A stretch of DNA of 64,000 nucleotides from Azolla caroliniana (lineage: Eukaryota; Plantae; Polypodiophyta). Position numbers and translations under genes: made by a program. Location: contig JBHGNT010000001.1 of assembly GCA_043228905.1 (NCBI GenBank), forward strand, positions 26,598,001-26,662,000, given 5' to 3'. Of this stretch, positions 7,498-55,506 are shown piece by piece. A model generated the notes under the pieces. The model worked only from the letters and a program-made list of their open reading frames with translations, was not told the origin of the DNA and did not search any database. Position 1 is the stretch's first letter. The number at the start of each line of letters is the position of its first letter.

Positions 7498-7500
<3 letters not shown>

Positions 7501-7703
7501 AAATGGATGTAGCTCAGTTGGTAAGGTTACCTAATGGAGACCATGAGGTCATGGGTTTAACCCCTACATTCCATATTGGCATCTAGTGAATTAAGAGATA
7601 TGTATAAAGTATATAATAGAGAGGTGAGAAAATTGGGTTTCAAACCCAAGACGTAGTGTTGCTAATGTAGCAACTTACCACTTTGGGTACGCTAATTATG
7701 ATA
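7498..7703 (+). mobile_element. Bipartite tRNA-like (SINE-like) repeat, copy 1, inside a (GA)n tract
   Basis: A box TAGCTCAGTTGG (7510-7521), B-box-like GGTTTAACCC (7554-7563), an AT-rich linker and an opposite-strand A/B-box module. (GA)n on both sides; four more copies in the window. Confidence 0.85.
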
Positions 7704-8040
7704 GAGAGAGAGAGAGAGAGAGACTATGAAAAAAAATATTCTTTAAGATAAAGAGATACAAGAGAGAACTTACTTGGAGGACTCAAGATTGGTGTTGAAC
7801 TGAAAGAGAGAGAGAGTAATAGATAAAAAAGAGAGCTTAGTTGGAGGACTCAAGACTGGTGTTTAACTAAAATGTTCGATAAGAGTGAGGGGGCTTCATT
7901 ATATAGTTGGTCATGGAGCATTCTAGGGTGTTTTAGAATGTTCCAAGAAGTTCTAGAATTCCTTGGATGTTCTTAGAAGGTCTAGGAAGTTCTAGAATAT
8001 TCTAAGATTACTCTAATTATGATATTTAATAAATATATGT
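7704..8040 (-). mobile_element. Gypsy LTR-like remnant
   Basis: A cluster of TTCTAGAA-type subrepeats resembles the reverse complement of LTR 2865-3209 and shares CTAGAATATTCTAAGAT. Confidence 0.45.
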
Positions 8041-8061
8041 ATAAAATGGCTTAATCGCATA

Positions 8062-10535
8062 CAATGTTGGGCAAAATCCTAGGAACAGTGTCAACGTTCT
8101 GGTTGGGTTGGGACTTTTGCCGGCCAAGGTGGGGGAGAGCCGGAATTGATTCCAGATAGAATTTTCCCAAAATCGGAATCTAACCGGTTCATTTTTTTTG
8201 AACCGGCTATTTATACATTAAAAAAAAGTAATAAAAAGTGATTTTCTTTATTTCCCCCACCTTTTTGTTTGTTTTCCATTGTTTCCCTACACTCTCCAAT
8301 CCCTCTTTTTCCCCCTCTTTTCCATGTTTCCCTCATGTTTCCAAACTCAGAGATTCCCTGTTTCCCCCCATTTTCCCTCTCTTTTCCTGTGTTTGTATTA
8401 CCTCTTCGCGAATAGTGTGTTCTATTTTCAAGGTTTGTGCTTAAGTCATTTGATTGGGTTTTTTGTGCTTAAGTCGTTTATCATCAACTCTATTTATGCA
8501 TTTTGATCTTTTGTGCAATTAATATGGGCACTGATCTAATCTGTTGTCTCTATGTCAATTGCATAACAATGATGTGAGACACAAGGTCATCTGTCAGTAC
8601 TCATGTTGTGGAGATTATGAGATGTTTGATAGCCTTCCGATCTACGCAAATGTAGAAGGAACCCTCGACTCATCAAACCATTAGATGTATGTTTTCGTGG
8701 TTGCCTTAATGGGGCTAATTCATTAGTGTATTAAACTCCAAGCAGTTTGCACATACATCTCGATTCTCAACTATGGGTTGCTTTGTTTCTTTCATCTCAT
8801 GCACCTTTGTGGGTAAATAATAATGCCGGAAGCGATTGATGATGAGACTGATGAATATGTGGATGTTCATAAAAGGTAAAGAAAGTGAAATTTTAATTTT
8901 GCATGTTCAAAATCATCGATTAAAGAATATGCATTAATTATAAAAACAAGTTCTTTTGGGGAAGATCAATTGAATTTAAATGATTTTTTTACCTATTGAT
9001 TTGAACGAAAGCAAAATTAGAGTCGTTGTTTCTTTTGTATCATCAACGAGATCTACATCAGTTGCTCGGCTCTTGAGTTTGATTAGATTGAGTATCATAT
9101 CATTCCCCTATCTAGCTTTCTTTTATTAGTTTCACTTGATATGGTGTATATGTAGAGATATTAACTTTTAAGTTCAGTTCAATCCATTTCATGAATGTCG
9201 TTAATCAATTCGTGGAGGGGATATTGCACACTTACACAATGATGGGTCTATGTCAATGTAATACAATTATATTTGTTTTCTTATAATGAAGTTGTTTATA
9301 GACTAAATGAATGTGATTTTTAAAACTAGAGGACTATCTTGCCTGTGCATGTTGTTTGAAAATAGGGATTGATAGAATTTTTACTGTGTTCTGATTTATT
9401 ATAATTTGGCATGTTTGATCAAGGCTGCCAGAGAAGAAAGATTGCGCAGGGAATTTGAGGCAGAAGGTCAAATTATTCCTCCCAAGGAGAAGTCGGAAGC
9501 TTGTGATTCAAATGTAATCACACCAGGGACTCCTTTCATGGATAGTTTGGCGTTAGATCAAAGTAGGAACCTAGGTTCTACTGGCTAAATAGCATGACCA
9601 TCACATTTTGTTCCCACCCTATAGTATTTCTACATCTTAGGTTATTTTGTCGTGCAAACTCCCCAAGTGAAGGGGAGCATAAAGTAATGTCATACATTTG
9701 CTTGCAGAGAAATATTTGTGGCTTTGATTCCAATACTTTCCATTGTTTGTATGGACTTGTATGTATTTTCGACTGTATATGAAATAAAAATGGTTTTCAT
9801 TGTTATCAATTGTTTCTAGTATAACATCTTTGACACTCTAGAAATTGAGAAGGATGTTGATCTTATAATGTTGGCTCTTGCAAACCATGAAATACACTTT
9901 TCCATGTTAAGAGAGGTAATATTCCTATCATTGCCAATCTGATATCACATACAAGACAACTGGTAATTTATTTGGTGAAATTCAAGTTACATGACCCTTG
10001 TTTGTGGACTTGTGATAGTAACATGCTAATATGGACATACAACTAAGTTTTGGATTCTTGGACCTATATGTCATGACTCATATCTTAGAGATTATCCTTT
10101 ACGCTTAAACGTATACTCAACAAAGTTGCCAAAGAGAAGTATTTTTAGGTAAAAGCTCAATGCTCACCAGGTCATAACAGTATGTATGGTTTTAGTGGTG
10201 CTAGTCATTGTTTTTTACTGATGTAACAATGCTTCTATCATCAAAGGGGGAGGGTTTTGTCAATTGAACTCAAATGATCTCATGTGGGGTGGATAGTTTG
10301 CTATATATTTAGGACAACATAATGATTAGTGGACTCTCTATGTCCATATGTACATGGGGTGTCTTAAAGCCCATATGGTTGTTGCATCATACATGTGGTA
10401 AAAAAATAATTTAACATGTTTCAATTGACATTATCACTTGTAGGAGAGTGGCTGGTTAAAAATTTTAATTTTACGGTTAGGATCACAAGCAGCAAGAAAA
10501 TTTTCTGTAGGGGTTAAAAACTTTGCCCAACACTA
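8062..10535. mobile_element. Non-autonomous hAT-like TIR element carrying captured gene exons (Pack-hAT)
   Basis: 14-bp TIRs CAATGTTGGGCAAA (8062-8075) / TTTGCCCAACACTA (10522-10535), 12/14 complementary. 8-bp flanks ATCGCATA / ATGGTATA match at 6/8. No transposase inside. Confidence 0.7.
9424..9915 (+). pseudogene. XRN: Fragment of an XRN2/3/4-type 5'-3' exoribonuclease (three exons: 9424-~9560, 9641-9758, 9853-9915)
   Basis: [49 protein letters not shown] and DVDLIMLALANHEIHFSMLRE are XRN N-terminal motifs. AG acceptors precede all three exons and GT donors follow exons 2 and 3. Frameshift present; the rest of the gene is missing. Confidence 0.9.
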
Positions 10536-10684
10536 ATGGTATATATACATATAGCCTTATAGGTTATAGGTTTGAGACTTTTCATCTTATGGTGGCTATT
10601 ACATTAATTATATGTGGGACCACAAATTTTAATAGAATTGAAGTTCTTTCTATGTAATGTAGTTGCATATTGCATATAGTACAA

Positions 10685-10870
10685 GGTGGCTATTTTATGG
10701 TTATGGTTAGTTATTGTTTATATTGAATTTTGATCATTAATAAGTGAGATGGCTAGTTTACAGTTATGGTTAGTTATTGTTTAATATTAAATTTTGATCA
10801 TTAGTAAGCTAGGTGGCTATTTTACAGTTATGGTTAGTTATTGTTTAATATTGAATTTTGATCATTAATA
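10685..10870. repeat. Tandem repeat, ~63-bp unit x3
   Basis: The GGTTAGTTATTGTTT...ATTTTGATCATTA unit occurs three times. Confidence 0.9.
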
Positions 10871-12509: not shown

Positions 12510-12630
12510 AGCTAAAAAGGGTGTGTTAAAAGGGTGGGTCAGCTTAGGTACATGCATCCTAAAAAGGGTGTGCTAAAAGGGTGGATCGGCTTAGTACATG
12601 CATCCTAAAAAAGGTGTGCTAAAAGGGTGG
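12510..12630. repeat. Tandem repeat, ~45-bp unit x3, probably within a gypsy LTR
   Basis: AAAAAGGGTGTG(C/T)TAAAAGGGTGG-like unit three times, next to a minus-strand PPT at ~12656-12665. Confidence 0.8.
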
Positions 12631-16791: not shown

Positions 16792-17870
16792 GGGTTAAAA
16801 GGTCTCACATTTAGGTTTGAAATTGTTGGAGCTTGAGACTCCCGAACCAAATTGTTGCCAACTACTACTCTGTATGGTTTATGAAGGCACAATTGAATAG
16901 TGTTTAAATAATTCATCTAATTAACCTAGAGTTAATAGTAACTTCAATAAATTTGAGGAAAAGTTATTTCAAAGTTGTAGTAACAATAAATAGTACAATG
17001 TTTGGGTTGTTCATTCTCATAAGGTCTTATATTTCTAGTATAAATAGCAGATATATCCCAATTATGGGACCACCCATTATACAATTTTTTTCCTAGATTT
17101 TTGAGTCAACCACGTGGTAATTTAGTGAATTGATGTAGTATTTTTCTCCAATGGCAAATGTGCTATAAATCAACAAAGCCAAAGTAATAAAATTGTGCTC
17201 AAGTCTCAATTGTACTATTAAATATAAATAAGTTACAATGACATATTTTAACTTAGATATGAAATCGGATGTAAATGGTGTACCTGAATATCAGATTCGA
17301 TAATGGTTGTACAATTGAAATTATCGTCTACATATTCCAGTAGATCGATACGGACGATAAGGGTAATATTGTTGTATAGGACATACTAAGCATTATTCTC
17401 ATCCCCTCTACCCCTTGAATGCTTTAGAAGTCTACTTGGGATAGCGGTGTGAACTTTTACGTTCTACTGACACATGTACACAAACCATTTATACACCATT
17501 TAAACATTTTGCTGAAGCTTCAAAACCTCTACTCCTAGTGAACCATAAGAGCTTTCATCTTTGATCCAAAACAATGAAAGCTTTGAACTTTCACATTTTT
17601 GCCTTATGATTGACATGATACCTTTACAATCCATCATTTCATAAAAAAAGTGGAAGTTCTAGAACGTTTGAAAGTTTGTTCCCTCACACAACTTTGATTC
17701 AAACTCACATAATTTATTTGGATAGAGTTAAATCTTTTGAATTTTGCTAATCTAGCTCATGAATTAATAAAGATCACTATCGATTGACCAAAGATATAAG
17801 ACTATAAGGCCTATTTATTTTGATCGACAATTATTGACACCTCTCTCTATCTCTATCTCTCTCTCTCTCT

Positions 17871-17940
17871 TTTTATCGCAAGTACCTTACCCTAGTGGTA
17901 AGTTATTACACCACTGTGTCTTGGGTTCAAAACCCAATTA
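17871..17940 (-). mobile_element. Bipartite tRNA-like repeat, copy 2 (second module only), inside (CT)n
   Basis: TTTTATCGCAAGTACCTTACCCTAGTGGTAAG...GGGTTCAAAACCCAATT matches one half of the other copies, with (CT)n on both sides. Confidence 0.75.
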
Positions 17941-17954
17941 TCTCTCTCTCTCCC

Positions 17955-19330
17955 CGTAAATAATGGCTTTCATTATGAAAGAAAACAAAACCACAATGAC
18001 TTAACTTACTACAAAGTATAGAACCCTTCTAGGGAGCTAAATACTACCACAACTACAAACTCAATGCTACCCGACACACCAATTCAAGTTGTGACCTTAC
18101 AGAGTTCTCTCTCTTCATGGTTGAGATTTCATGACTTCTCTAGCATTGTCAATTGCCACAAAAGAAGTCCTTTTAACTTTATAACATATTTTCCCACTCC
18201 AACTTGTGAATCAAAAGTGAAGGCATTCCGCATATTCCAATTGAACCATAGCCCCCAATACCTCAAGAACTCAAAAATAATTTGGAAATGAAGCATCGGT
18301 TCATTGTTCTCCATATGTGCAAAAACCCAACTAAATGAAGATAGGCTCACTCCATTTAGAGGCATCCACACCAAATTGATACACATCCAAACCATCCTAG
18401 CCATCGGCCATGAAAGAAATTGATGCCTTTTATGTTCCAATTCCACCGAACGAAAGAAACACATTCCTCAAGCAATGTTTCTTTTTTATAATGCATCACC
18501 CAATGTCAAAGCTCCAAACATAACTCTCCAAATGAATACCTTAGTTCATAACATTAATCAAGAACACCAACATACCTTGATCACATGAAGCCACCAAGTA
18601 ATGGGCTTATGAAAACCCCATATCTTTATAACCCTTTCTTTCATCCATTGATGTTTGTCAATCAACTTGTGATAAGCATCGTTTGTTGATATCGTAGTCA
18701 ATCTCCTATTTCCAACAATCGTCCAATCAAGCTCTTGAGATCCCCCGTCTAAATCAGGAATTGACTCGTACGAAGAAAGTAATTATTGCAACTTATCCCA
18801 AATAAAGGTATAACCTTTTGGAATATGAAATGTTGATCTTGTTCGAAAGGCCATTAATCTTCTTTGTGACACCAACATAGCATTATTGATTGTTCCGAAC
18901 CCAATCTAACCATCCAATTAAATTGAAGGTTAAGAAGTTGTTTACCTTCCCACCTCAACAACCTTGATGTCGTCAAAACCTCAATGTGTAATGAATTAGC
19001 ACATCCCCTTTCTTGTGGAGGATGCCATTACACAAAATCGAAAATACTTTACCAAGATGTCAACAAATGTTTAACTATTAGAGAGCTTGCACGTTTGACA
19101 TACATTTTAGAATTATTGACATTCCATCAATTAGCTTCAACCATTATGTTTCCAAGTTTGGTTCTCATCAACCATCATGTCTTTTCTATAAAGTATGCGA
19201 CCGTTTTATCCAAGGTTGTACACCCTCAAACATTGAAAGAAAGTAAATCGATGAGCCACCATATGCTCATATAAAATTAATATCAATGCCCCCCCTCTTT
19301 CTCTCTCATAGGTCATATTTCACCTCAAAA
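17955..19330 (-). mobile_element. LINE (L1/Tx1-like) ORF2 3' part with zf-RVT, decayed
   Basis: Minus-strand KVFIWRVMFGALTLGDAL...MCFF.SVELEHKRHQFLSWPMARMVW...YWGLWFNWNMRNAFTF matches the zf-RVT region and the downstream W..W..RN...F motif. Confidence 0.75.
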
Positions 19331-19351
19331 GATGATAATAGAATCTCTCTC

Positions 19352-19512
19352 TTTTATCGTAATTAGCTTCCCCTAGTGATAAGTTGTTACACTACTCTTT
19401 TACTCCATATAGATATATCTTAATTTACTAGATGCCACTGTGGAATGTAAGGGTTGAACCCATGACCTCCTGGTCTCCATTGGGCAACCTTACCAACTAA
19501 GCGACATCCATC
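19352..19512 (-). mobile_element. Bipartite tRNA-like repeat, copy 3 (internal deletion)
   Basis: GGTTGAACCCATGACCTCCTGGTCTCCATTGGGCAACCTTACCAACT matches the other copies; preceded by (CT)n. Confidence 0.85.
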
Positions 19513-22038: not shown

Positions 22039-22325
22039 ATATTGGAATTTCCCGACTTTTTGTTTATATTAGCCCGATGGAAGAAAAGAGACCCAATGAA
22101 ATGACCGGTGTCCGAGTGCCCGAAGCACTTTGGCCAGGCAGTCCAATCCATCCCCAACATGTATGTATGTTATGTATGTATGTATGTATGTATGTATGTA
22201 TGCATGTATGTATGTATATATGTATGTTTGCATGTATGTATGTATGTATGTATGTATGTATGTATGTATGTATGTATGTATGTATGTATTGTATTGTATT
22301 TTTGTTTGTTTGTTTGTTTGTTGTA
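21982..22325. repeat. Microsatellites (GA)n, (TATG)n and (TTTG)n upstream of the kinase
   Basis: Directly visible simple repeats. Confidence 0.95.
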
Positions 22326-22756: not shown

Positions 22757-25700
22757 ATGGGCAAACATGTGAAAAATAGTGGAGGGGGATGTTTTTCTTG
22801 TCTTGATGGTTCCCCTGGAAGATCGTGGAAGCTTTCTTGCAAAGTGGAGAACCTGAAGTTTTCGCAACAGAAAACAGGATCATCTATACCCAAGAAAGGC
22901 CATTCAGGTACACATGTATACATATCTGTACTTCTCTACGAGGGTCTATATCTATCCATGCAATCGTGTGTAAGTACTTGTCTAATGTGTCAAAAGTGTG
23001 TGTCTATGATGTATGTATAAATCCTGGCGTAGTTGAGTAATTGTTGATTTCATTGGACAAAAGAAGCCAGATAAGCATGTGGCTGGGTGGAAAGTTATAT
23101 CTTTGGTGTAATTGTCTCTATTAATGTATGATTGGTAGCACACTGATACGTAAATCTTGTTATAATGGGTAGGGTATAGATCTAGGCTAAAGGGGAAGGA
23201 ACGCCTTGAAATGACCTTATTAGGAATCAAGAATAAGGCCAGAGCTAAGGTAAATGGGACTCTACCTAGCCCATGTTATTGATTTCTAATTAGGGTTACG
23301 TGTGTGCACATAACGCATAACATAAATAAACCTCATTTATCTATTAAAAGATCAGCTTGCTGACAATCTATATAATAAGAATAGGAATAAAGAAATTGTG
23401 TTGATCTCTAGCCTGGTATGAATCCTAATGAAATTTATACAGCGTTAACCAGATTCATTTTCCATTAAAGTGATGAGCTAGATGATCCTCTGAAAGGTTA
23501 CATTATTCTTTAGCTACAGACATTGGATATGTATGAATTATCTTGCAAACCTGTGAGTATCAGCTGTGTTTAATCCCTGCTATTAAGAAGTATCATTCTT
23601 TTACAGTGTATAGTGTTAGCTACATTAGTTTTGATTCATATGAAAGTTTCAGTAGTAGCATGGATTTTGATCCATATTTCTATGTGTATGTTTTGCGTCT
23701 GATGCTTCTAATATGATATAAAATTATTTCCTATGGGTGCAATGAAAGATGTGTACTTCGAGAAGTGCAAAGTGCAAATTTTTCTATGCACAGGTCAAAT
23801 TGGCATTGAGACATGTGTTTTCATGCCCCTGATGGATTGAGATGAACTCGTGCAGACTTCTCCATTTCCAGTGGTTCTAATATGACGTTGGATTCCTTTT
23901 TAGGGATGTAATTTAGTGAAGTTTGATGTTCGATGTTCCATTTCATAGAGTTATCCATGTTGATTTTCATCCATATGCTACTCATATATTCATATGAAAC
24001 TTTTAGTTTCTTCCACCTTGTTATAGTCTTATATTGTTAATTCATAGAATTCTATATATATGAAGCTAAACTGCTCCTTTGCCTTTGTTATCATCTCAAC
24101 TCTCATGTTATCAAATCATATAATTATATTTTCATCAAAGTTTTAATATATTTATGTTAAAGTCATTAGCTAATTTGTTACATTTTTATGGTCAAAGGGA
24201 CAGAACATTTGAATGATGGTGATGGAAAACACATTTCTGCTAAAACATTTACACTGAAGGAGCTTGCAGTGGCGACGAAGAACTTTAATGCAGGGTACTT
24301 TCTAGGGGAAGGTGGCTTTGGACGAGTGTATAAAGGCAAGCTTGAAAGCTCAGGCCAGGTTGGTTTTGTTAAGTTTTTTGAGGATTTCGATAACGTGACC
24401 GTGTAATTAAAGTTAATCTTGATGAACCAATAATCAAATAGAAGGCTTTGTGATTAACTCTCCAATGTCAATAAGAGACGAGGTAGCCCTTCCATTACCA
24501 TCAATTATGAAGTTTTGTGTGGATTTTGACAACTTGATTGTGTAATTAATTAAGTTAATCTTGATAAACCAATAAACAAATAGAAGGCATAGTGATTAGC
24601 TTTCCAATGTTCAATAACAGACTTGATAGCCCCACATATACGCATAAATTTTAGGCCAGATCACAGCTATTGAGACTAAAGCATGGATAAATAGGTTTGT
24701 CTGTGTACAAATGTGTCACATCTCTTAACCTTATTATAATCTCTAAAGTCTGGACTATGGTACCTAGCCCTTCATGCATTCCTAAACCCCTTCCACTAGG
24801 CCTATCCAGGTTGAGGATGGATATATCTATGCACATGCAAATGGGCCCATCTCTTCTGCTTTATTTTGGCATCCAGACTATGGCTATCCAAAGACATACA
24901 CATGACAAGGGTCCTCTCTGCTGTCTTATTTGAGATCTTAGCTATTCGTATTATGCATGGAGTTATGTGTGACATGTGTGCACATAACACTGAATTTTCT
25001 ACATTGGATTTCTTGCTTTTATATTATCATTGCTAGTATGCAGTATCATGTATGCGACTTGATATTTACTTTTTTCTTTTGCAGATTGTGGCTGTAAAGA
25101 TACTTGACACAAATGGCCCACAAGGTAACAGAGAATTTCTTGTGGAGGTATTGATTCTCAGTTTGCTTCATGACCCAAACCTTGTCAATCTCATTGGATA
25201 CTGTGCCGATGGAGATCAACGACTCTTGGTCTACGAGTTCATGCCTAATGGATCATTAGAAGATCACCTTTTTGGTATGAATCAAAAAAGTCAGAAAACC
25301 CACAATTTTGAATCAAGGGTCCAAAAAGAATTAAAAGAAAATGAAAAACATTGAATCAATGGTCAACAAGAAAAATTGTCCCTTTTTGGGTTTGCAACTT
25401 GCAGGATTTGTAAACTAGTCGTCAAATTTTGAAACAAAGGGTATATATGTATATATGTATGTATCCCCAATTCTGAGATGTTTTAGAATAAAGACCCTTG
25501 AAAAGTAGTAAGATTCCTGTGAATTTAAAACATTTTGACATATGCAGATGAAGATTGTTATGTTTATGTGAAAATGTGTTTTTCAAATACTAATTGGATA
25601 GAATCATTTTCATTATGTTTGTCGACAGTTATTTGGTTTGGATATGCCATGTTCTAAGATCTGCTTTTCTTTTACAGACCTTTCTCCTGAGACACCAGTG

Positions 25701-27430
25701 CTGGATTGGAATACAAGAATGAGAATTGCTGCAGGTGCTGCAAGTGGTCTCGAGTATTTGCATGATAAGGCAAATCCACCTGTGATCTTCCGAGACTTCA
25801 AATCATCTAATATCTTGTTAGATGAAGAATTCCACCCAAAGTTATCGGATTTTGGTTTAGCTAAACTGGGTCCTGTCGGAGACAATTCACATGTTTCCAC
25901 AAGGGTTATGGGTACTTATGGTTATTGTGCTCCTGAATATGCTATGACTGGCCAACTCACAGTTAAGTCGGATGTTTATAGCTTTGGCGTGGTTCTTTTG
26001 GAGTTGATCACAGGACGGAAAGCTATCGACGATTTGAAACCTCCAGCAGAACAGAATCTTGTTAATTGGGTAAGTATGAGTATCCAATGCAAAAAAGAAG
26101 GGGGGAAACACTAAAATATCCGTAATGTTTTGCATATTTATTATAAAACCAATTCCGAAAATGCCCAGAATTTAATTGGGATTTACTAAAAATATCCCCA
26201 AAGTTTTCAAATTTTACCAACTATTCTGTTGTAGTAAATTTTGTTGTACAGAGGGGCAGGCTGGTAAAATTTGAAAATATAGGGATTATGAAAAGAACAT
26301 AAGCTAAGGGGTATTTTGTACATACCCATCAATTAAAGCTGTATTTTGTTATTTTTGACCTTTATTACAACTACTAGCAGGATAAAAGAAAATCCCAAGG
26401 AGTTGTTAAATATAAACAATTGCCCAACTATATCCTACTAAATCCTAATAGCACAGATTTTTTTGAACGCCCAGGGTTAATCATAAATAGCCAAAAGTTA
26501 AACGGCGTTCTGGTATTTTGTGGCAACTTTTCATTTTGTAGCAAATATTAATGTAAATTCTTATTTTTTTGTCTGGGATACTTTTGATGAATCTTTTGAA
26601 AAGGTTCACAAAAAAAATATACGCAAAAATCCCGAAAAAGCCTTAAAAGATGTAGCCATTTGGTGGACATTATTACTCCCTATTTTGTCTATCAGTTATA
26701 GTTTAAAAGACTCCAAAACATCATGAGAAATAGAGATTATTAGTAGCAGCTGATTGTTTTCATGTCAGGGTTTAATTTCAGCATCTAAGAAATATATTGA
26801 AATAATATGTACTGATTAATGGTTTTGTAATATTTGGCAAAAATCCGTCAAGTACTTTGTTCCTACGTAATGATGGCAAGCTTCCTAAAACCTTGATATA
26901 TACCGTTTTGGAAAACTCCTAGTGAATAGTTTTCTTGATTTTTTATTTTCATCTCAAATAGCATGTGAGTATATGCTCAGTGTTTGTTAGTTTGATTTTT
27001 TTTGCTTGCCAATATGTATTGGAATTTAATAGCACTCAATCTTTTCTGTAATATTCAGTGAAGAAATCTTTCAAAGCATTTGATATATAAATTTAATTTG
27101 TTTTTATTTCAATGGAAGAATTAATTATGGTCTCCAACATTCATTATCTCTAATATACTTCATTTGGGGTCCATTTGTCAGGCACGCCCCTTGTTCAAGG
27201 ATCGAAGGAAGTTTTTGTCAATGGTAGACCCGTTATTACAAGGGCAATATCCTTTGAGAGGCCTTTATCAAGCGCTTGCGGTGGCGGCAATGTGTCTACA
27301 AGAGAAAGCAGATACCCGACCCCTTATTGCTGATGTCGTCACTGCCCTTACATACCTAGCTTCACAAACATATGATCCTTCGTCCATACCTCTACAGAAG
27401 AAAGAAGATGGGTACAAGACAACAACTTAG
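22757..27430 (+). CDS. PBS1/PBL-like receptor-like cytoplasmic kinase (RLCK VII); exons 22757-22907, 24198-24358, 25085-25274, 25678-26069, 27182-27430
   Basis: [61 protein letters not shown] and [16 protein letters not shown]. All introns are GT-AG with consistent phases. Confidence 0.93.
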
Positions 27431-29893
27431 GAATGGAAGGAATGCATACAAGTATCCACGACAATGATGACGATGACATCCAAATGAAGGCTTGATGGTC
27501 AAAGCTGGAATTCAGGTTTTTTATGAGTAAGAAAATAAAAAAATAGCAAAAAGAATATTAAAAGAAAGACAAGTCTTCACATCATTGTCTGTGGTGATAT
27601 TCCCTGGGAGCATAGCAAAAGTGTTCAGGTACTGGAAGGTATTCAAAATTGAGTTCACTACCAAAGGTTTGCAGACAGCTCATGCTATAAAACAACGGTT
27701 GGGCCATATGCTCAAGTGACCATGTCTTGATAAGATAAGGGGTCATATATATGCTCGGGAGACTATCTTGATAAGCAGATGGTCATATGCTGAGATAAGT
27801 CATCATCACCCTAGACAGATAAGTTATATCATATATCATTTGCTTGTATGTCACAAGCAAGATTGTTCTACCTCAACTGTATACAATCTGAAAGAGATTC
27901 GAACACCTTTCATGTACAATACAATGTACGGCTATCATTTCAATATATATTTTATATTTTATAAATTCATACATACATAGATACATACATGCATGCATAT
28001 AGTTTTGGATCACTTACGTAATATACACACATATTATGCATGCATATATAAATGATGATACATACATGTATACCCAAGTCAAAATGTTGTGCTGATGTTT
28101 AATACATATTCACACTAGAAGCGTTCTATCTTGATGTTTGTAACAAAGAGGTTCTTGCTATCTCTAATGCTTTGACCATCACACAATATTGTGAAATGGA
28201 TTGGCTTAAGGGCCCTTGCCTCATTTGGTTGATCTAGGTCATGATTTGTTTGCTTGCCAATCAGGATAAGTGAAATGTTATTTTTAATGTACATGAGGTG
28301 AAAGGTTGTCTTCTGTTGGTGAAAGATTGTCTTATGTTGCTGTTACATTTTATACCTGTCGGCATATAATAGAATACACTCTTCTGTTTGGCTTTTTACG
28401 GTTGTCTTGCCTTCACATATAAATTAACTAAAAGGTTTGGCTTCCACCTTGGATGATGTTTTACCTAGGGGTACCCAATTAGCTGCAGATTGGTAATGCT
28501 AAAGGAGAAGTAAATGTACATTCAGTTCTTTCCCTCCTGTGAACATGTCTTTCAATATGCATGATGCTCCATTGGAGAGGGCAAAATCTCCCCCCTGTGT
28601 TTGTTGTGGCTCCTTAACTTCCTCTAATTACTAAATGCTTTCTAGTTGTGATGTGGAAGTGTCTTAACTTGATCAAAGAGAGACTTCATTTACTAACTAT
28701 ACTTCTAATGAGAAAGTGGGTATGTATTTGATGGGAATCATGAGCTTAGTTTTTTAATTACACCTACATACACTACTTACAAAAGTTTATAAAGTCGACA
28801 TCAATTAATGTTGAAACTTGATACTAATTAGAATCCACCTATGCTTGATGCTAAAATAATTGCTATTATTTGCAGATGAAGGTTATAGATAACCCTTGAT
28901 TATGGTTATAATGTTGCTTGAGGTAACTAAGTTGTAAGTAACTTGTAACTATATGCAATGATAGTATGTTGGTATTGAATGCTTGTGTGCAACATGGCGC
29001 TAAAGATTGAGACCATGAAGTGGCAAAGAAATTCATAGTCTTGAAATACATATTCCAATGATATCAATGCAATAGATGAGGATTAGTGCGCATTCTCTGG
29101 AACAACCGATCAAAGTTTTGAGCTTGTCAATTCTAAATAAAAGGGAACAAAATTTGAGCCAAAGCAACAAAAAAAAATGCAGTTTTTCTTTCTTTTGTTC
29201 TCTCAGACATTCTTATGAGACAAAAAAGAGAGAAAAGTTGCTTGAGTGAAGAACCTTTGAGCCAGACATTGATGATTGTTGTCTATTATATGGGGGGGGC
29301 ATCGTGTCTGATTGTTGTTGCTGGGATTGATTAGAGTCTCTCTCAAGGAGTATGAAGAGTTGCGGCCTAGGCCTTTAAAACTTCTTGTTCACTGGTGAGC
29401 CCGGAATATGCATACAATTTATAAAGGAAGCCCAAAGATATTTACAAAAATACCCCTGATGTTTCACAGAAGTATGGACTCTGGTTTTTGGGAACAGAGG
29501 CATCTAATTGTTCTTTTTGGTCTCTAGCATTGAATGCTTCAGCATTCCACCCTTCATCTCAACCTGTAAAACTAGCCTTACAACCAATCCAAAAACCCTA
29601 AAAACCTTCAAACAACCCTAAAACCCCACCTCTCAAAACTGACCTTCACAGCACAACCTCTAACCTCTAACCGCCAAAAGCAACTTTATACTCCAATTCC
29701 GAGACCCAAAACTCTGAACCCTTAAAATTGGACAACCAAGAACCGGAACCTTAAACGCTGAAACCCTGAAGTACTTTCACGAGTATGTAGCTTAAATGTG
29801 GGATGGGGGGGTTTCTCCCCATCATTGTGCACTGGCTCAGCAAAATGCCATCATCATTCTTGTTCCTACACCAATTTGTTGTTATCCTTAGCA

Positions 29894-35335: not shown

Positions 35336-36948
35336 CTACCAGCCGCCTCCACCTGACTTGTTGCCATAGCCACCGCCTTCATTCCTATCCCTACCACCGC
35401 CATAGCCACCTCCACCTCCACCACCGCCGGAGCCATAGCCGCCACCACCACCGGATCGACCATTTCCATAGCTATCACCGCTTTCATATCTAGATCCACC
35501 ACCATATCCTCCACCGCCACCGCCGGAGCCACGGTAACCACCACCTGATCCACCTCCATAGCTGCCACCACCCCCGCCGCCAGAACCTCGGTAGCCTCCG
35601 CCTCCGCCACCACCACTCGAGCCACGGTAACCTCCACCACCACCACCAGATCCACGATAACCACCACCACCACCATCACCACCAGATCCTCGGTAGCCTC
35701 CACCACCTCCACCTCCACCTCCAGACCTTGCTTGGGCCTGGTTCACTGTAATGTTGCGGCCATCTAGCTCCTTTCCATTCATTGAGTCGATTGCATCTAG
35801 CATTGACTGTTCATCAGCAAAAGTCACAAAACCAAAACCCCGTGACCTCCCAGTTTCTCGGTCATTGATGATCTGGATCATGAACAATACCAAACGTTCG
35901 TCAAAAGTGAGGAGAAAATACTTTTTGGAAAACTAATGAGCAAAGTTAATTGGAAGATCCACATCTCAAACACCAGAGACAGATTCGGAGAAGAGCAAAT
36001 TCTCTCACGACAACAAAAGATCCAAAAAGTCTATTTCCCTCTCTGTACCTCTAATCTCTCTCTCTCTCTCCAACAGCTAAGACTCTCTGAAGAACATCAC
36101 GCTTCCTGGACTAACAGAAACTCACAAAGAATATTTCACAACTGCCTCTCTGATTATTTACACCAAGCTTCCATGGAAGACAGGAGAAACAAAGTGGGGA
36201 AGAAGACGAGGAATGAAATCAAAACAAATCATTTTCAAATCTGCACGCTTTACTCTTTTACCTCTCTGTTGAGAGAAGCTTCAATGGAAATTCTGCTAAA
36301 ATAAGAGAAGTAGATTTAACAAAATAGCAGAAGTCAAAACTTCTACTTTTCTGCTCGCTACCTCTCCTTCGTTTCTGTCGAAGTTTCCATGGATGGATGA
36401 CCCAGTGAAGGTGAAGGAAAAAAGGAAGATTGTGGACAAGTTAAATGGAGAAAACTTAAAAACCCTCTCTTTTCGCATCAAGGTTAAAGAGTGCCTTCTG
36501 TGTGTGTTACAGCACAGGGTAAGTCACAGGCAGAGGAGCAAGAATAAAGAAATGAAAAAGAGTATACACACACGACACGCACATCCCAGTGGAATCTTCC
36601 TTGGAAGGAAGGGAAGGAGTTAGGGAAGAGAGAAATCAGAAGGAAGGAGCCTCAGTGTCTCGCTGATGCATTTTTTGTTCTCTAGTATCGGAAGCTTCCA
36701 TGGAAGCTTGGGGAAGGAGAAATACTGTCTTCCTGGTCTGTTAGGCTGCAACAGTCCCATCCCATAGAAGCCGTACGCAAGATGAAGGCAGAGAGAGAGA
36801 GAGAGTAGATATATATATATGTATATAAATATACCTTGGAGTCTACGATCTCGCCATAGGGTTGGAAGGCGGCGCGGAGGCTCTCGTCATCGGTGGCCCA
36901 GGCGAGGCCGCCGACGAAGCACCGGAACTCCACATCCGCAGCAGACAT
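35336..36948 (-). CDS. Glycine-rich RNA-binding protein (RRM + Gly-rich tail), GRP7/GRP8-like, 216 aa; exons 36948-36835 and 35872-35336
   Basis: MSAADVEFRCFVGGLAWAT (RNP2)...DSK|IINDRETGRSRGFGFVTF (RNP1), then GGGGYRGSGG repeats. GT-AG intron at the conserved DSK/II position. Confidence 0.96.
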
Positions 36949-37106
36949 GGCGAAAGAGAAAGAGAAAGAGAAAGAGAAAGAGAAAGCAGAGGAAGGAAGA
37001 AAGCAGAGGAACAAGATGCAGAAGCAGTAGAAGAAGAAGAAGAAGAAGAAGAAGAAATAGTGAGGGGGGGGGAGAAACAGGGGAGGAGACGAAACCCTAA
37101 CTTTCG

Positions 37107-37147
<41 letters not shown>

Positions 37148-37354
37148 ACTACGACTACTACTAGTATGTATGTTATATATGTATGTGTATTATTGTATAT
37201 GTAATCTACATACATACATACACTTGGAAAGCAGAAGTACTTCTACTACTAAAGTAATAAGTATGTATGTGATGTACTACTACTTACTAGTAGTAGTAAT
37301 AGAGGAAGATGATGAGGAAGATATTTTTGTTAGGATGGGATGGGATAGGGTTCC

Positions 37355-38707: not shown

Positions 38708-39202
38708 TGTTGAGAATCAAACTCAACTTCCTTAATGTGGAAACACACCTTAAGAATAACCAAGTGTGTGAACATCCCACCACTTTGTATCATAACTAAT
38801 GTGTCATAGAAGTTCAGTTCTATGACACATAGTTACTGGGTAGTCAAGTTTCTACCTCTTTTTCAAGAGGTGGTTGTAGTGAGAGAACATAAAGAGAAAG
38901 TAACTACATAAGCACCTTCTCCTCTTCTTTGTAATGTTGTTGGTTGTTTTGTTCTCTTGTTTATACAATCTTATTGTTTTTATATACTCTCTCTCTCTTT
39001 TATCGTAATTACCTTACCCTAGTGGTAAGTTATAAACGCTACAAGCACTGCATCACATGTTCGAAACCCAATTTCCTCACCTCTCTATTATATACTTCAT
39101 ATTCTCTTAATTCACTAGAGGCCATTGTGGAATGTCGGGGTTGAACCCATGACCACCTGGTCTCCATTGGGCAACCTTACCAATTGAGCTACATCCATCT
39201 GG

Positions 39203-39274
<72 letters not shown>

Positions 39275-42810: not shown

Positions 42811-43667
42811 GAAATATGAAAAGGAAAATGAATTAGAGGTATGCTAGTTGGTTCTTCAATAACATTGCTAGACTTCATCACACAAATCTTATTTGTTCAA
42901 AATTCACTTATACAATGAATTTTGTAGCTTCATGGCTTGTAAGATTTCTTCCTCTTTACCTCACGCACACATTTCATTCATGTATAAAATAGATTTTGCC
43001 GCTTCGATTTTCCTTAAAATTCTCACAAAATTATCCCCCACTCTCATTTATTTTATATTTTATTGTCTACTTGAGCACTCTTCTTCATATGTAGACACCT
43101 AGTTTTGAAGGTGACACCATCAAGTGAATTATCATCTTTTTGTTCACAATACATATGTGGTTCACCCTTGGCTCCATCCCCTCTTCCAACAATAGTAACA
43201 CTTCTCTAAACTAGTTTAGCTAGCTTATATCCTTAGGTTGCTTGTTGGAGAATGGACGATTGTTCAAATGGTTAAGAGGGTATGGAAATGCAAAGGTCCT
43301 CAAAATTACTTTCTATCTCCACCTAATATACCAATTTCTATATCGTGGTCATTACCTTGATGAGATCAAGACTCCATTTCTAAATATGCTTTTTTGTGTT
43401 CCTTGTGTTTTGCTCAAAATTTTCCCATTGTCCATAGCCAAGGGAAATTTCTTTCTAGGGTAATTACCTACTAATATTGCCCCTGATCCAATGCATTCTA
43501 TGGAAGAGGCTTGAAATTTCTCCTTTGTGAACTTTGAAGTATCCTTATTGTCATACATCTTGTAGGATGGTACAAAATTGTTTTCCTTGAGTAGTGGTTA
43601 CTAGTGATGTGGCACAATATCAATGTAAACATTAAATACTTGTTAAATATGTAGAATACGTCAAATA

Positions 43668-44569
43668 TGTAAAGAATCGGGTGTGATTCTATGTAGCGGA
43701 AGAGATGTGTGTGTGTGTGTGTAAGAGAGAGAGAAAACATTGTGTATGTAGAAAACAATGAGACTGTATAAACGAGAGAATAAAACAACCAACAACATTA
43801 CAAAGAAGAGGAGAAGGTGCTTATGTAGTTACCTTCTGTCTATGTTCTCTCACTACAACCACCTCTTGGAAAGGAGGTGGAGACTTAACTCCCTAATAAC
43901 TATGTGTCATAGGACTTAACTTTTATGACACGTTTGTTATGATACAAAGTGGTGGGTTGTTCACACACTTGGTTATTCCTGAGTGTGTTCCCACACTAGG
44001 GAAGTTGAGTTTGATTCTCAACACACCCCTTCAAGTACAACTTCCAGTCACTAGGAAGTCAGTTTGGTGATTGCTCTATTCGACTTTCGTTCTGTTCTGT
44101 TTGACTCCGAGTCGGGTTGCGGCTCATTACTCCCCCTCAAGCTTGGCTAATCAACGGTCGAGGGTCCTAGGTTTATCGTGAACTATTGTGGCTTGTCGGT
44201 TCCCAAGGCCTTCGTGAAGATGTTGGCCATCTGTAGGTTAGTGCTGATGTGTTGCTGGTTGACATCTCTAGCCAGGACACGTTCTCGAATGAAATGGTAG
44301 TGCACCTCCGATGTGCTTAGTCTGAGCGTGAAAAATCGTGTTTTGAGCTAGGTGAATACTACTCATGTTGTCGTAGTACAAGAGGATTGGATCTTTGATG
44401 GAGACGTCCAGATCCTTGAGAATTCTCTTAAGCCTTCGCATGCAGCCATGGTTGCGCCCCTATATTTGGCTTTTGTGCTTGACAATGCGAGATCATGCGT
44501 TTTGTTGATCATACGATCGTCAACAAGGAGTGTGAATGGTGTGTCATCGGTGCACGTTTTAGATAGCAT

Positions 44570-50188: not shown

Positions 50189-50415
50189 TTTGGAAAAAAA
50201 AAACTTTAAACATGAATTCGATACATTTTATCGAATTCATGTTGAAAAGTCAGCTTTTCGACACGAACATCGAGTTCATGTTTAAAGGTTTTTTTTTCTA
50301 TTTATTTTGGGTCTTTTTGTTTTTTTATTTTATTTTGAAGTGATGAAAAAACTAGAGTTTTCATCACAAGTCAATATAATGTATCGAATTCATGTTTAAA
50401 GTTTTTTTTTCCAAA
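50189..50415. repeat. ~40-bp inverted repeat within an AT-rich foldback/MITE-like region
   Basis: TTTGG(A)nCTTTAAACATGAATTCGATACATT versus AATGTATCGAATTCATGTTTAAAG(T)nCCAAA. Confidence 0.8.
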
Positions 50416-51399
50416 TTAAAAAAAATAATAATCTAAAATTAATTAAATTAAATCAAAACAATTTTAAACAAATTTTAAAAAATTACTTTAAATATGAACT
50501 AGGTACATTGTACTGAATTGTGGTGAAATTTTTGGTTTTTTCATCAAGTCAAGTTCGATTTTTTTATTTTTTTATTTTTTTATTTTTTAAAATTCGGGTA
50601 CATTTGAAAATGAGGAGGAAGAGCCACAATTGTATATTAGCTATAGTAGTGATTCTCATGAAAGGAATGATGATAGTGATACAAATAATCCTAAATGTAT
50701 TTTTTGTGCAACGATATATAAGAAATTTAGACAACAATTTATCGCATGAAATAAAAAAGTTGGTTGTTTTGAAATCTTTCGCTTATGATTTCGTTAGGAT
50801 CTAAAATACCAGTAGTTGTAATTTCTCCTTAAAAATACACAAAGTTACTTCTTGTATTTAGCCAAAATTTGGCATTTTTCAAATTTACCAAATGGTGAAA
50901 ATTCTAGCTTTTTCATCAAGTTTTTGAGAACATGTGATATTGGTATCAAGGTGTTTTGTGAAATGGCCAAAAAAGCCCCAAAATAAGATGAATTATTCCT
51001 TATCCTTCCATTTGTGCGCGATCCTTCCACTTGTGAACACAAACGTGTTGAGTGTACTCTCTACCCCTCCTCATGAAAATATGCTTCAACCTCCGCCAAC
51101 ATCATCACTCATCCTTATCTAAACTAAAACATATGCTTCATTGTCTGCATCAACCATTTTAGAGATTACCGGCAAAATCGTCTCGATTCCTATATGCCAC
51201 AACCACCACCTCCATTGTAACTCATGTTCTTAGCTATGTCCACTTAACATTAGTGCCAACATCCAACATGATAGGAATAGATGACCAAACTCGTTGAATT
51301 CTCCTTCTTTTTCGATTAGCTTACAATTTTTTATGTACAATAATGTATAGTAATTCTAAGACCAAAGATAGGACTTTATAGAAGGTGTTAGAATTTTCT

Positions 51400-53661: not shown

Positions 53662-53694
<33 letters not shown>

Positions 53695-53757
53695 GTTGTG
53701 CGTGTCATCCTTGCACAGGGGCCATGTTAATCTTCTTTGTATCGTTCCGGTTTTATC
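53695..53757 (-). pseudogene. U6: U6 snRNA internal fragment (pseudogene)
   Basis: Minus strand GATAAAACCGGAACGATACAAAGAAGATTAACATGGCCCCTGTGCAAGGATGACACGCACAA matches the central part of U6. The ACAGAGA box reads ACAAAGA and the AGC triad reads AAC. The 5' stem and 3' U-tail are missing. Confidence 0.92.
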
Positions 53758-55255
53758 CCCCCCTTCCGCTCTCTGTATCTCTCTCTCTCGTGCGCGCGAA
53801 AACACACAACTATATTAATAAATGTGTGCCAAAAACACTAAAATGGTACAATTGAGTGTTGTCACTACTATGCGGAAGTGGTACATGTTGAATCGCCAAT
53901 AGGCAATATGAACACTCCGTGGAGGAAAGATTTTTTACTTTCTCCAATAAGCAAAACTACCACGTTAATACTCCCTTCAACCTTGATTGATGTTGCTATA
54001 TGGCAATCAAACCGTGGTTGCTTCGTCATTTGTATAAATAAAGGACCTCATATCAATGTTATACTTAGTAGTTGTTTCCAAATAACCTATGATTGGGCGG
54101 GGCCGGGGAATGTGTAATAATCTTCACACTTCAACAAAATCCAAAAATCTCTAAGATCGAACGACAACTACATCTCCCACCTCTTTGACCCCTAAATGAA
54201 CAAACGACTAAACCAAGATTATAATCTCTCCTTTCCATGGCAATATAATACTTGAGAAGACACAACTAATTGTCATGACAATAAGTTATTGGGAGGATGA
54301 TATATTGTCTATTTGTTGGGGGGGATGTGAAAAGGTGGGGTAGGGTGTGTTTGGATATTGTTTAATAAGTGGCATAGCACATTAAGTTTATGACTCTTTA
54401 GTAATGGCGTAGTTTGGTTTGTTTTTCACTAATTTCCCATTTGACTTTATCAAATTGGAGCTTGTTGTTTACCATACCCCTATAGTCATTGATGCCCCAC
54501 TTCTTGAACCCGTATAGGATGACATACACACTATGAAAGGGACATGATTTTATTTTTCTTTGTTGCAATGTTAGTGTTCAACCCAACATAACGTTAGACA
54601 ATATGGATCCATTCCCTTTTACCTTGTTCGTTTGTCGACCATTTCATGTATAGCCTGAATGCACATGATCTCATCCTTGTCTTTAGAACCATCATCGAAT
54701 AGGGTATGCATTATGATCCTTCTATGTTGCCATGGAAACAATCCTCTTTCATGCACCCACCTCTCCATGTTATATGTAGTATGTGATTTTGTAGGGCGAG
54801 TCTTGCTTTTGTATATGTACTTGTTGATATGCTAATAAAATTTGTAGAATAGTAAATGCACGTCGTAATATTGGGCAACGTTACGCGTCACTGCCAAGGT
54901 CATGTTGTGAACCTAGACTGTAATCATTTATCCTAATATTGTTAGCAGCAAAGGGAGGAACACTCATCAGTCCTTCCTAAGGTACTAGCGATAACATTAA
55001 TCACTTAAACAAAACTCTGCAACCTCTCTCATGGTTAAGCAACTATTGTTACTTTGTGACAAGATTCATTGGTGGTCTTCTTTCTTGTACAGTGGTCAAA
55101 TCTCCTTTTCACGATTGAGCCATGGGCCATATTGTGTGTGATGATCTCCATGAAGTACTAGAATGTTCACACGGGTGAAAAGGAGATAGATTTTACAAAA
55201 GTCCTAACTAAGGTTTCCAATAGACGTGCAGAGCCTTTGGCTGAAGTGCCTCCAT

Positions 55256-55281
<26 letters not shown>

Positions 55282-55286
<5 letters not shown>

Positions 55287-55506
55287 GTAATTAGCTTACC
55301 ATATTGGTAAGTTATTACACTACAATCCATTATGTATTGGGATTGGTTCGAAACCCAAATTTCTCACCTCTCGATTATGTATATACTTCATACATATCTC
55401 TTAATTCACTAGGTGCTACTGTGGAATGTAAGGGGTGAACCCATGAGCTCCAGGTCTCCATTGGGCAACCTTACAGACTGAAGCTATACATCCATATGGG
55501 CCCATT
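55282..55506 (-). mobile_element. Bipartite tRNA-like repeat, copy 5, inside (CT)n, ~300 bp upstream of the E2 start codon
   Basis: GGTTCGAAACCCAAAT...GAACCCATGAGCTCCAGGTCTCCATTGGGCAACCTTAC with (CT)n on both sides. Confidence 0.88.

What the first reader, a model, noticed from the sequence alone, without database searches (positions are those of the whole stretch)
7498..55506. Microsatellite-dwelling element built from two convergent tRNA-like Pol III modules (5 copies in 64 kb)
Seen: copies at 7498-7703 (+), 17871-17940 (half), 19352-19512 (-), 38998-39205 (-) and 55282-55506 (-). The consensus has a head module GGATGTAGCTCAGTTGGTAAGGTTGCCCAATGGAGACCAGGAGGTCATGGGTTCAACCCCTACATTCCA: A box, B box, GGATGTA/TACATTCC acceptor-like pairing, ending in CCA. 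An AT-rich linker follows, then an opposite-strand module (TAGCTTACCCTAGTGGTAAG...GGGTTCGAAACCC). Every copy abuts (GA)n/(CT)n, with no poly-A tail, TIR or ordinary TSD. Known: tRNA SINEs have one head or same-sense tandem heads; (TC)n targeting is known for Tx1-clade Kibi LINEs in fish and (TA)n targeting for some rice MITEs. Inference: a high-copy, (GA)n-targeted element whose two convergent Pol III promoters could yield complementary transcripts. I do not recognise it as a described family.
Basis: partly seen in the sequence, partly recalled or inferred. Interest (0 to 1): 0.85.

Follow-up and report, generated by a model that had tools for sequence, protein, structure and literature searches.

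The report
Fern SINE with inverted tRNA module
This 205-base repeat, from a plant that is likely a fern, starts with a tRNA-like unit, ends with a decayed tRNA-like unit facing the other way and sits mostly in GA microsatellites in one orientation; it is likely a jumping RNA element (SINE) copied from the first unit only, and whether the backward unit still makes an antisense RNA is untested.

Summary
The five copies are real. Eighty-four more loci show a ~205-bp family, median 89% identical to consensus, in four species labels. It behaves as a one-way tRNA-derived SINE. The head is 65% identical to a tRNA over 75 nt, the 3' end is fixed and A-rich, 5' ends vary, and 3 of 35 two-ended copies have target-site duplications (one perfect 14 bp after A8). 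So 'no poly-A, no TSD' is wrong. (GA)n association is strong and strand-specific: 48 of 81 5' ends, (CT)n 0 of 81, background about 1.5%. It is not universal. The 3' third is an inverted tRNA-like unit: A/B boxes at tRNA spacing (0 of 5000 shuffles), but only 52% tRNA identity, no extra conservation and a looser spacer. It is most likely a captured inverted SINE head that now forms the 3' end. Poly(A) RNA-seq cannot show or exclude a ~70-nt antisense RNA. A U6 fragment sits at the same GA site, pointing to an unidentified microsatellite-preferring LINE. My ten paper searches found no inverted-dimer SINE. Verdict: new variant of SINE.

The parts
7497..7702 (+). Copy 1, full-length SINE (~205 bp)
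7497..7575 (+). Copy 1 head: tRNA-derived module 1 (A box 7510-7521, B box 7554-7564)
   Evidence: Rfam tRNA 12.2 bits at 7503-7575; boxes; consensus head 65% identical to a tRNA over 75 nt
7576..7632 (+). Copy 1 AT- and purine-rich linker
   Evidence: consensus linker 31% GC
7633..7702 (-). Copy 1 module 2: inverted tRNA-like unit (B box/T-arm hairpin 7636-7646; A-box-like hairpin 7678-7689; T4 on the minus strand at 7629-7632)
7457..7497 (+). 5' (GA)20 tract of copy 1
7703..7723 (+). 3' (GA)10 tract of copy 1
17871..17940 (-). Copy 2: 5'-truncated copy (module 2 plus A5 tail) between GA tracts 17941-17952 and 17856-17870; it begins at the element's internal GA-rich stretch
19352..19512 (-). 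Copy 3: internal deletion removes the second B box; A4+(GA)4 at the 3' end; no GA at the 5' end
38999..39204 (-). Copy 4: full length, A4 tail, between (GA)23 (39205-39250) and (GA)6 (38987-38998), inside an LTR-like repeat
43665..44046 (+). Paralogue of the LTR-like repeat without the element; it holds (GA)5 at the same place (near-empty site)
55283..55501 (-). Copy 5: full length, between GA tracts 55506-55519 and 55256-55282
53673..53758 (-). U6 snRNA fragment between two GA tracts in the same orientation; not part of the element, likely a retrocopy made by the same machinery
   Evidence: Rfam U6 53.3 bits; same upstream repeat and GA tract as the SINE copy in L063

Best explanation
The element is a ~205-bp multi-copy repeat with a tRNA-derived head and an A-rich 3' end, likely a SINE that is predicted to be transcribed by Pol III from the head and copied into the genome by an unidentified LINE that likely prefers (GA)n tracts; its 3' third is a decayed tRNA-like unit in inverted orientation, likely a captured second SINE head that now only forms the 3' end. 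Steps. (1) Shown: A and B boxes in the head at tRNA spacing, and no T4 on the sense strand of the consensus. Inferred: Pol III reads the whole element and runs into the 3' A/(GA)n flank. (2) Shown: fixed A-rich 3' end, variable 5' ends, TSDs of 9-14 bp, same-orientation tandem arrays. Inferred: target-primed reverse transcription by LINE ORF2p in trans. (3) Shown: (GA)n lies on the sense strand at both ends, and a near-empty paralogous site already holds (GA)5. Inferred: the (TC)n strand is nicked and its 3'-OH pairs with the A/GA-rich RNA end, so endonuclease preference and RNA-target pairing could reinforce each other and hide most TSDs inside the microsatellite. (4) Shown: module 2 has A/B boxes on the antisense strand, and its predicted start coincides with the element's 3' end. 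Inferred: a founder transcript ran through a neighbouring inverted SINE head and the fusion became a source copy; its two hairpins may serve as the 3' structure that the LINE protein uses.
For: Head: 65% identity over 75 nt to the best of 25 phage tRNAs, 0 of 300 shuffles as high, profile score 27.3 bits against a shuffle maximum of 1.2. A-B spacer 32 nt in 51 of 54 copies. Tail and TSD: L008 has a perfect 14-bp TSD after A8 (read by eye); L016 (13 bp) and L057 (9 bp, 1 mismatch each) pass a strict positional test that 12 of 1176 cross-pairs pass. A-run consensus follows the 3' end in contigs of organisms A, B and C. Direction: GA>=4 units at 48 of 81 5' ends and 18 of 39 3' ends; (CT)n at 0 of 81 (>=4 units) and 0 of 39 (>=3 units); background 0.7-1.6%. 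All 28 of 28 neighbouring hits share one orientation. Near-empty LTR-like paralogue. U6 fragment at the same GA site as a SINE copy. Module 2: A+B boxes found only on the antisense strand, 0 of 5000 shuffles on either strand; best-tRNA score above 300 of 300 shuffles, profile 7.8 bits against a maximum of 5.9, while its sense strand and the linker score as random; it aligns end to end with the head of a second repeat family seen in L046 (0 of 500 shuffles). Decay: box identity 0.88 against 0.90-0.92 for the linker, spacer 14-50 nt, CpG in the B box eroded.
Against: No partner LINE was found: 0 non-LTR domains in 64 window ORFs and 102 locus ORFs, and both RVT_1 hits are Ty3-type. Pol III transcription is not shown. 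Only 3 of 35 two-ended copies show a TSD, and a looser TSD test did not separate real pairs from cross-pairs (12 of 34 against 268 of 1108). 5 of the 7 two-ended copies without GA show no TSD. The empty site is not exact: about 13 nt differ at the junction. 18 of 71 heads carry neither part of module 2, so many copies are also 3'-truncated or interrupted. Module 2 is only 52% identical to the best tRNA tested, below the 60% SINEBase rule. The second family resembles the head almost as well as it resembles module 2 (scores 52-55 against 52-62). The loci were picked by a head 23-mer, which hides module-2-only copies.
Confidence: 0.72

Rival explanations
1. Both promoters work. Module 2 is still a Pol III unit that makes a ~70-nt antisense RNA, ending at the T4 just behind its T-arm, which pairs with the 3' end of the SINE RNA and limits or silences the element.
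For: The antisense B box fits the box pattern in 25 of 55 copies, as often as the head's (26 of 55). The modal spacer is 32 nt in both modules. A T4 stop follows in the consensus and in 26 of 55 copies. Both hairpins are better kept than the spacer between them (0.89-0.91 against 0.81).
Against: The boxes are not better conserved than the linker. The A-box-like motif has C at the usual G10 position. A variant that breaks the T4 makes up about 45-57% of depth in two DNA runs and 19% in a third (position 410). There are only 3 double-change cells in the T-arm stem. No antisense-retroposed copy or (CT)n-flanked copy was found. Poly(A) RNA-seq shows no start or end peaks, though it cannot capture such an RNA.
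Confidence: 0.15
2. Module 2 is not a captured tRNA-derived head. It is a LINE-derived 3' tail, or a pair of hairpins whose resemblance to A/B boxes is incidental.
For: There is no RF00005 hit and no tRNA hit in phage blastn; identity to tRNA is 52%. 3' stem-loops are common in stringent LINEs and SINEs (PMC3747384, passage). SINEBase warns that A/B boxes are an indication only (PMC3531059).
Against: The box pair, its spacing, its strand specificity and the whole-length tRNA score all exceed shuffles. The top loose ends in three DNA runs show no unrelated sequence joined upstream of the tail (only the best 6 per run were listed, 318 not shown).
Confidence: 0.15
3. The (GA)n association is not targeting. 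The element carries a GA tail made by slippage, and new copies land in or beside older tails or hitchhike in GA-bearing LTRs.
For: Tandem arrays are common (24 of 84 loci have more than one hit). Several copies lie in the GA tracts of the same host repeats. Tail-target pairing is proposed for RTE SINEs (PMC6007223, passages).
Against: 5' ends at varied truncation points abut GA directly (7 of 81 at the A box). A paralogue without the element already has (GA)5. Copies at non-GA sites have A-tails rather than GA tails (L008, L016). A U6 fragment uses the same site.
Confidence: 0.2
4. It is a microsatellite-targeting MITE (Mutator-like) whose two modules are long, decayed TIRs, or a Helitron, or a fragment of an LTR/TRIM (Helenus- or Cassandra-like).
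For: The two modules are weakly inverted-similar (48 of 82 columns, 7 of 2000 shuffles). Pineapple Ac-mMITEs sit in (TA)n, cluster, and have 9/10-bp TSDs (PMC8449440, abstract). There is a hairpin near the 3' end.
Against: Orientation is strictly one-way (48:0, 28:0), there are A-tails, the ends are not inverted repeats of each other, and there is no CTRR end, TG..CA, PBS or PPT in the aligned copies. Copy 4 interrupts an LTR-like repeat whose paralogues lack it.
Confidence: 0.03

Closest known systems
tRNA-derived SINEs (SINE2) as defined in SINEBase (PMC3531059; part 1 of 5 and passages read)
   Same: Short interspersed repeat, tRNA head >=60% over >=60 nt, body of unknown origin, simple-repeat tail, TSDs.
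   Different: The body ends in an inverted tRNA-like unit. [quoted passage not shown] The supplement with consensus sequences could not be read.
Complex (dimeric) SINEs: Sbg9 of Blattella (PMC9191728, passages); tRNA dimers and trimers (PMC4758252, passages); Twin SINE of Culex (title in reference lists only)
   Same: Two tRNA-related units in one retroposing element.
   Different: Here the second unit is inverted and forms the 3' end. That described dimers are same-sense is recalled; the passages read do not state orientation.
Tx1-clade target-specific LINEs Kibi/(TC)n and Koshi/(TTC)n, and their passenger SINEU families (PMC4494074; passages and section 14 read)
   Same: Microsatellite or fixed-site preference passed from a LINE to non-autonomous passengers, frequent tandem insertions, and more than 20% of flanks being the target (that paper's criterion).
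   Different: The paper describes Tx1 as animal elements, and SINEU has snRNA heads. No partner LINE is identified here, so Tx1 membership is untested.
Au-like, RTE-mobilised plant SINEs (PMC6007223, passages)
   Same: Plant tRNA SINE, 3' hairpin, proposed pairing of the RNA tail with the target.
   Different: Au-like SINEs end in a T stretch and their TSDs start with T. This family ends in A, and its three TSDs start with A or G.
Ac-mMITEs of pineapple (PMC8449440, abstract)
   Same: Abundant short elements clustered in dinucleotide microsatellites; TSDs seen mainly off-target.
   Different: They are DNA transposons with TIRs in (TA)n. This element is one-way, A-tailed and has no TIRs.

Membership tests
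tRNA-derived SINE (SINEBase rules) | Short (<1 kb) interspersed repeat | tested here: met
   ~205 bp consensus from 55 near-full copies; dispersed, with some tandem arrays
tRNA-derived SINE (SINEBase rules) | >=100 copies per genome | tested here: met
   5 per 64 kb; 4190 contigs of one DNA run lie on the element (contigs are not a copy count)
tRNA-derived SINE (SINEBase rules) | >=60% identity to a tRNA over >=60 nt (head) | tested here: met
   65% over 75 nt against 25 phage tRNAs, a set chosen from the head's own blast hits; host tRNAs were not available
tRNA-derived SINE (SINEBase rules) | TPRT marks: simple-repeat/A tail, TSD | tested here: met
   A-tails; TSD in 3 of 35 two-ended copies, cross-pairs 12 of 1176
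tRNA-derived SINE (SINEBase rules) | Pol III transcription from the internal promoter | not testable with these tools
   Only poly(A) libraries were offered; 64-79% of reads run on into unlike sequence
tRNA-derived SINE (SINEBase rules) | Dependence on a partner LINE | tested here: inconclusive
   No LINE ORF in 166 ORFs scanned; no genome was held
Complex (dimeric) SINE | Second unit is itself a complete tRNA-derived SINE module (>=60% over >=60 nt) | tested here: inconclusive
   52% over 75 nt, below the rule but above 300 of 300 shuffles; only phage tRNAs were tested; aligns with a second head family
Complex (dimeric) SINE | Units in the same orientation (recalled as the usual case) | tested here: not met
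   Boxes and tRNA score lie on the antisense strand only
Tx1/Kibi-type microsatellite-specific retroposition | Target sequence in >20% of flanks | tested here: met
   48 of 81 5' ends and 18 of 39 3' ends with GA>=4 units; background 0.7-1.6%
Tx1/Kibi-type microsatellite-specific retroposition | Partner LINE of the Tx1 clade with the same target | not testable with these tools
   No host genome and no LINE sequence in hand
Au-like/RTE SINE | T-rich tail; TSD starting with T about 10 nt after a T stretch | tested here: not met
   A-rich tail; the 3 TSDs start with A, G, A (n is small)
Mutator-like microsatellite MITE | Terminal inverted repeats; no strand preference | tested here: not met
   Ends are not inverted; orientation 48:0 to GA and 28:0 between neighbours
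Helenus/Cassandra-type TRIM or LTR fragment | LTRs with PBS and PPT (PMC10886601, passages) | tested here: not met
   None seen in the aligned copies; the element interrupts an LTR-like repeat
Any named family in Dfam, Repbase or SINEBase | Sequence match to a deposited consensus | not testable with these tools
   These libraries are not available; the SINEBase supplement could not be read

The most novel reading that the evidence does not exclude
A self-regulating SINE: the inverted module is a still-working, tRNA-gene-like Pol III unit (A box, B box, T4 stop) whose ~70-nt RNA is exactly complementary to the 3' end that the LINE reverse transcriptase must engage. The element would carry its own antisense brake or dsRNA trigger, and it rides a plant LINE that is sequence-specific for (GA)n.
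Probability: 0.13. Interest if true: 0.8.

Novelty: new variant of a known kind. Interest (0 to 1): 0.45.

Why it matters
It adds an architecture that I did not find described: a SINE whose 3' end is an inverted tRNA-type head. It occurs in ferns, where the main texts of two genome papers searched for the word never mention SINEs. Its strict one-way placement in (GA)n, shared with a U6 fragment, predicts a microsatellite-preferring LINE in a land plant, a habit described for animal Tx1 elements, and tells where to look for it. If the inverted unit is still transcribed, the family would be a natural test of built-in antisense control of a SINE. If not, it is an ordinary chimera and mainly a useful marker family.

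Tried and rejected
No whole genome was held. Rfam over the whole window: no tRNA hit, only U6 above cut-off. Targeted Rfam scans gave tRNA 12-15 bits for the head and only a tRNA-like mascRNA model for module 2 (14.7-20.6 bits, cut-off 42.5). ARAGORN: 0 in the window, and 1 hit in 60 of 84 loci scanned, which is a SINE head plus an AT run in L035. At lowered thresholds it called the head (80%) and module 2 (70%) but also a spurious gene over the linker, so I set this aside. A loose TSD search did not discriminate. The tail 24-mer gave 0 matches in prokaryote genomes and viral contigs. Sequencing-run search: no RNA holder listed. Poly(A) RNA-seq runs X18-X20 (one study, organism C, about 12% of each run read): 373, 374 and 95 reads; both strands, mostly first mate on minus; no start or end peaks. 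This is not usable for or against short Pol III RNAs. Partner LINE: none in 64 of 78 window ORFs and 102 of 103 locus ORFs submitted; the L071 RT is Ty3-type. A module-2-only profile search found truncated or deleted sense copies, plus one diverged lone copy in L033 and weak hits to a second head family, but no antisense-retroposed monomer. The kinase search did not resolve the host lineage. Papers: ten searches gave no fern SINE and no inverted-dimer SINE. PMC12973397 has no mention of SINE or fern in its main text. PMC3242629 was not held. PMC5786205 and PMC3272025 passages were not relevant to orientation.

Full report
Host. The window is plant DNA: Ty3 and copia fragments, a PPR gene, a kinase and an RRM glycine-rich protein. 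Among named hits of similar length, the PPR protein is closest to Adiantum and Ceratopteris proteins at 48-50% identity, so the host is inferred to be a fern. No whole genome was held.

Observation. Pairwise identity is 76-91%, and a profile built from four of them finds five hits at E<=1.8e-13 and nothing else below 0.81. Copies 1, 4 and 5 are full length. Copy 2 is the 3' third only. Copy 3 has lost the second B box and has no GA at its 5' end. The 'CCA end' lies inside the acceptor stem of the Rfam alignment.

Family. An exact 23-nt head motif found 84 metagenome loci, a few of them the same site assembled twice. A profile found 120 hits in these loci plus the window. The 55 distinct near-full copies give a ~205-bp consensus, with identity to it of 77-97%, median 89%. 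Of 71 heads with 215 nt of downstream sequence (28 dropped at contig ends, 1 duplicate), 40 carry both hairpins of module 2, 13 carry one and 18 carry neither. Runs of four coded species labels hold the element; laid runs gave 4190 and 1484 contigs on a full copy and 1162-1874 on the 3' half. The copy number is therefore likely in the thousands; the tool's depths are not a count.

It moves like a SINE, one way. The 3' end is fixed and the 5' end varies: 49 of 81 5' ends are complete, and 7 of 81 have GA joined directly at the A box. A>=3 follows the 3' end in 14 of 39 ends and A>=5 in 9. In contigs of organisms A, B and C the loose-end consensus behind the 3' end is an A run followed by GA (long GA flanks break contigs, so A-tails are probably over-represented there). 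L008 has A8 and a perfect 14-bp TSD (by eye; the strict scan missed it because of a 1-nt shift in its head). L016 and L057 pass a strict positional TSD test that 12 of 1176 mismatched pairs pass. A looser test was uninformative. All 28 neighbouring hit pairs share one orientation.

(GA)n. GA>=4 units lies within 30 nt of 48 of 81 5' anchors and within 14 nt of 18 of 39 3' ends. (CT)n does so at 0 of 81 and 0 of 39, and background is 0.7-1.6%. These counts include the window's copies. Of 35 two-ended copies, 28 have GA on at least one side and 9 on both. Copy 4 interrupts an LTR-like repeat whose paralogue at 43.7 kb lacks the element and has (GA)5 there, with about 13 nt differing at the junction. 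A U6 fragment (53.3 bits) lies between two sense GA tracts, behind the same upstream repeat and GA tract as the SINE copy in L063. Its match to U6 ends where the Rfam consensus itself reads GAGA. I infer target-primed reverse transcription from a nicked (TC)n strand, helped by pairing to the RNA's A/GA-rich end. Target preference passed from LINE to SINE, with tandem insertions, is described for Tx1/SINEU in crocodilians, and (TC)n specificity for Kibi in fish (PMC4494074, passages and section 14). Tail-target pairing is proposed for RTE SINEs (PMC6007223, passages). The partner LINE was not found.

Module 1. It is 65% identical over 75 nt to the best of 25 phage tRNAs (0 of 300 shuffles; profile 27.3 bits against 1.2; the set came from its own blast hits). 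Rfam gives only 12-15 bits against a cut-off of 29, as expected for a decayed head. The A-B spacer is 32 nt in 51 of 54 copies, partly fixed by how the loci were chosen. The source tRNA is not assigned.

Module 2. On the antisense strand the consensus has an A-like box (1 mismatch) and a B box 43 nt apart, with a 5-bp T-arm stem and then T4. No such pair occurred in 5000 shuffles on either strand (box patterns recalled). Its best tRNA identity is 52% over 75 nt, above all 300 shuffles (profile 7.8 bits against 5.9), whereas its sense strand and the linker score as random. It aligns with module 1 at 48 of 82 columns (7 of 2000 shuffles) and end to end with the head of a second repeat family in L046 (score 62, 0 of 500; module 1 scores 52, also 0 of 500). 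Its leader begins where the element ends, which fits capture of a whole inverted head. Against present function: identity in its boxes (0.88) does not exceed that in the linker (0.90-0.92); the spacer is 32 nt in 21 of 45 copies and ranges from 14 to 50; the CpG in the B box is intact in 23 of 55; T4 is present in 26 of 55; the T-arm stem shows 3 double-change cells. For function: its B box fits the pattern in 25 of 55 copies, as often as the head's 26, and both hairpins are better kept than the spacer between them. Copies decay after insertion, so these counts say little about the source copies.

RNA. Three stranded poly(A) runs of one study gave 373, 374 and 95 reads from about 12 million records each. 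Of these, 64-79% run on into unlike sequence, both strands occur, and no start or end peak was reported. These are most likely copies inside host mRNAs; such libraries cannot show a 70-nt Pol III RNA.

Rivals. A MITE, Helitron or LTR fragment is rejected on orientation, tail, lack of TIRs and the empty paralogue. Pineapple Ac-mMITEs are the closest DNA-transposon analogue (PMC8449440, abstract), and Helenus needs a PBS and PPT (PMC10886601, passages). A LINE-tail origin of module 2 (0.15), working dual promoters (0.15) and GA as tail rather than target (0.2) remain open.

Novelty. It meets the testable SINEBase rules (PMC3531059, part 1 and passages), so it is a SINE by those rules, with Pol III transcription untested. 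Dimeric SINEs are common (13% of families in that paper; also PMC9191728 and PMC4758252, passages). Ten searches returned no inverted dimer and no fern SINE, and two fern genome papers have 0 occurrences of 'SINE' in their main text. The library lacks most subscription papers. Dfam, Repbase and the SINEBase supplement could not be checked, so a deposited consensus cannot be excluded. Verdict: new variant of a known kind, interest 0.45.

Noticed in passing
window 53673-53758 (-): U6 snRNA fragment, truncated at both ends, between two sense (GA)n tracts; same upstream repeat and GA tract as a SINE copy in L063. Likely a retrocopy by the same LINE.
   Followed up: partly
L046:1936-2015 (+), L063:1251-1318 (+): A second tRNA-head repeat family, seen twice, each time downstream of a SINE copy in the same orientation; candidate relative of module 2.
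   Followed up: partly
L033:722-773: Lone, diverged module-2-like sequence without linker or GA flanks; an old copy or an independent monomer.
   Followed up: no
window 19307-19345 and L002, L004, L016, L022, L032, L048, L057, L069: A non-coding repeat (several hundred bp in the loci) that starts at a (GATA)n/(GA)n tract and has a short hairpin; SINE copies often sit in that tract.
   Followed up: partly
L008 head: The head's A-box region has changed so that it forms the same hairpin as module 2, which suggests palindrome-templated mutation and a shared ancestry of the two modules.
   Followed up: no
window 4846-6217 (+): DUF7869 ORF (E 2e-40) and neighbouring frames, probably a decayed DNA transposon.
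   Followed up: no
window 62609-62923 and 50335-50552: Long palindromic, MITE-like elements (127-nt arms, 97% complementary, for the first).
   Followed up: no
window 22159-22325 and 63009-63507: Long (ATAC)n/(ATGT)n arrays.
   Followed up: no
window 354-2880 (+); 14.5-16.2 kb, 39.4-43.7 kb and 44.1-46.9 kb: Chromodomain Ty3 pol fragments and several decayed copia copies whose LTR-like ends carry (TG)n(GA)n tracts.
   Followed up: partly
window 25037-26111 (+), 29762-32197 (+), 35339-37242 (-), 58843-59169 (+): Host genes: PBS1/PBL-like kinase exons, single-exon PPR protein, glycine-rich RRM protein, 2-oxoacid dehydrogenase acyltransferase exon.
   Followed up: partly
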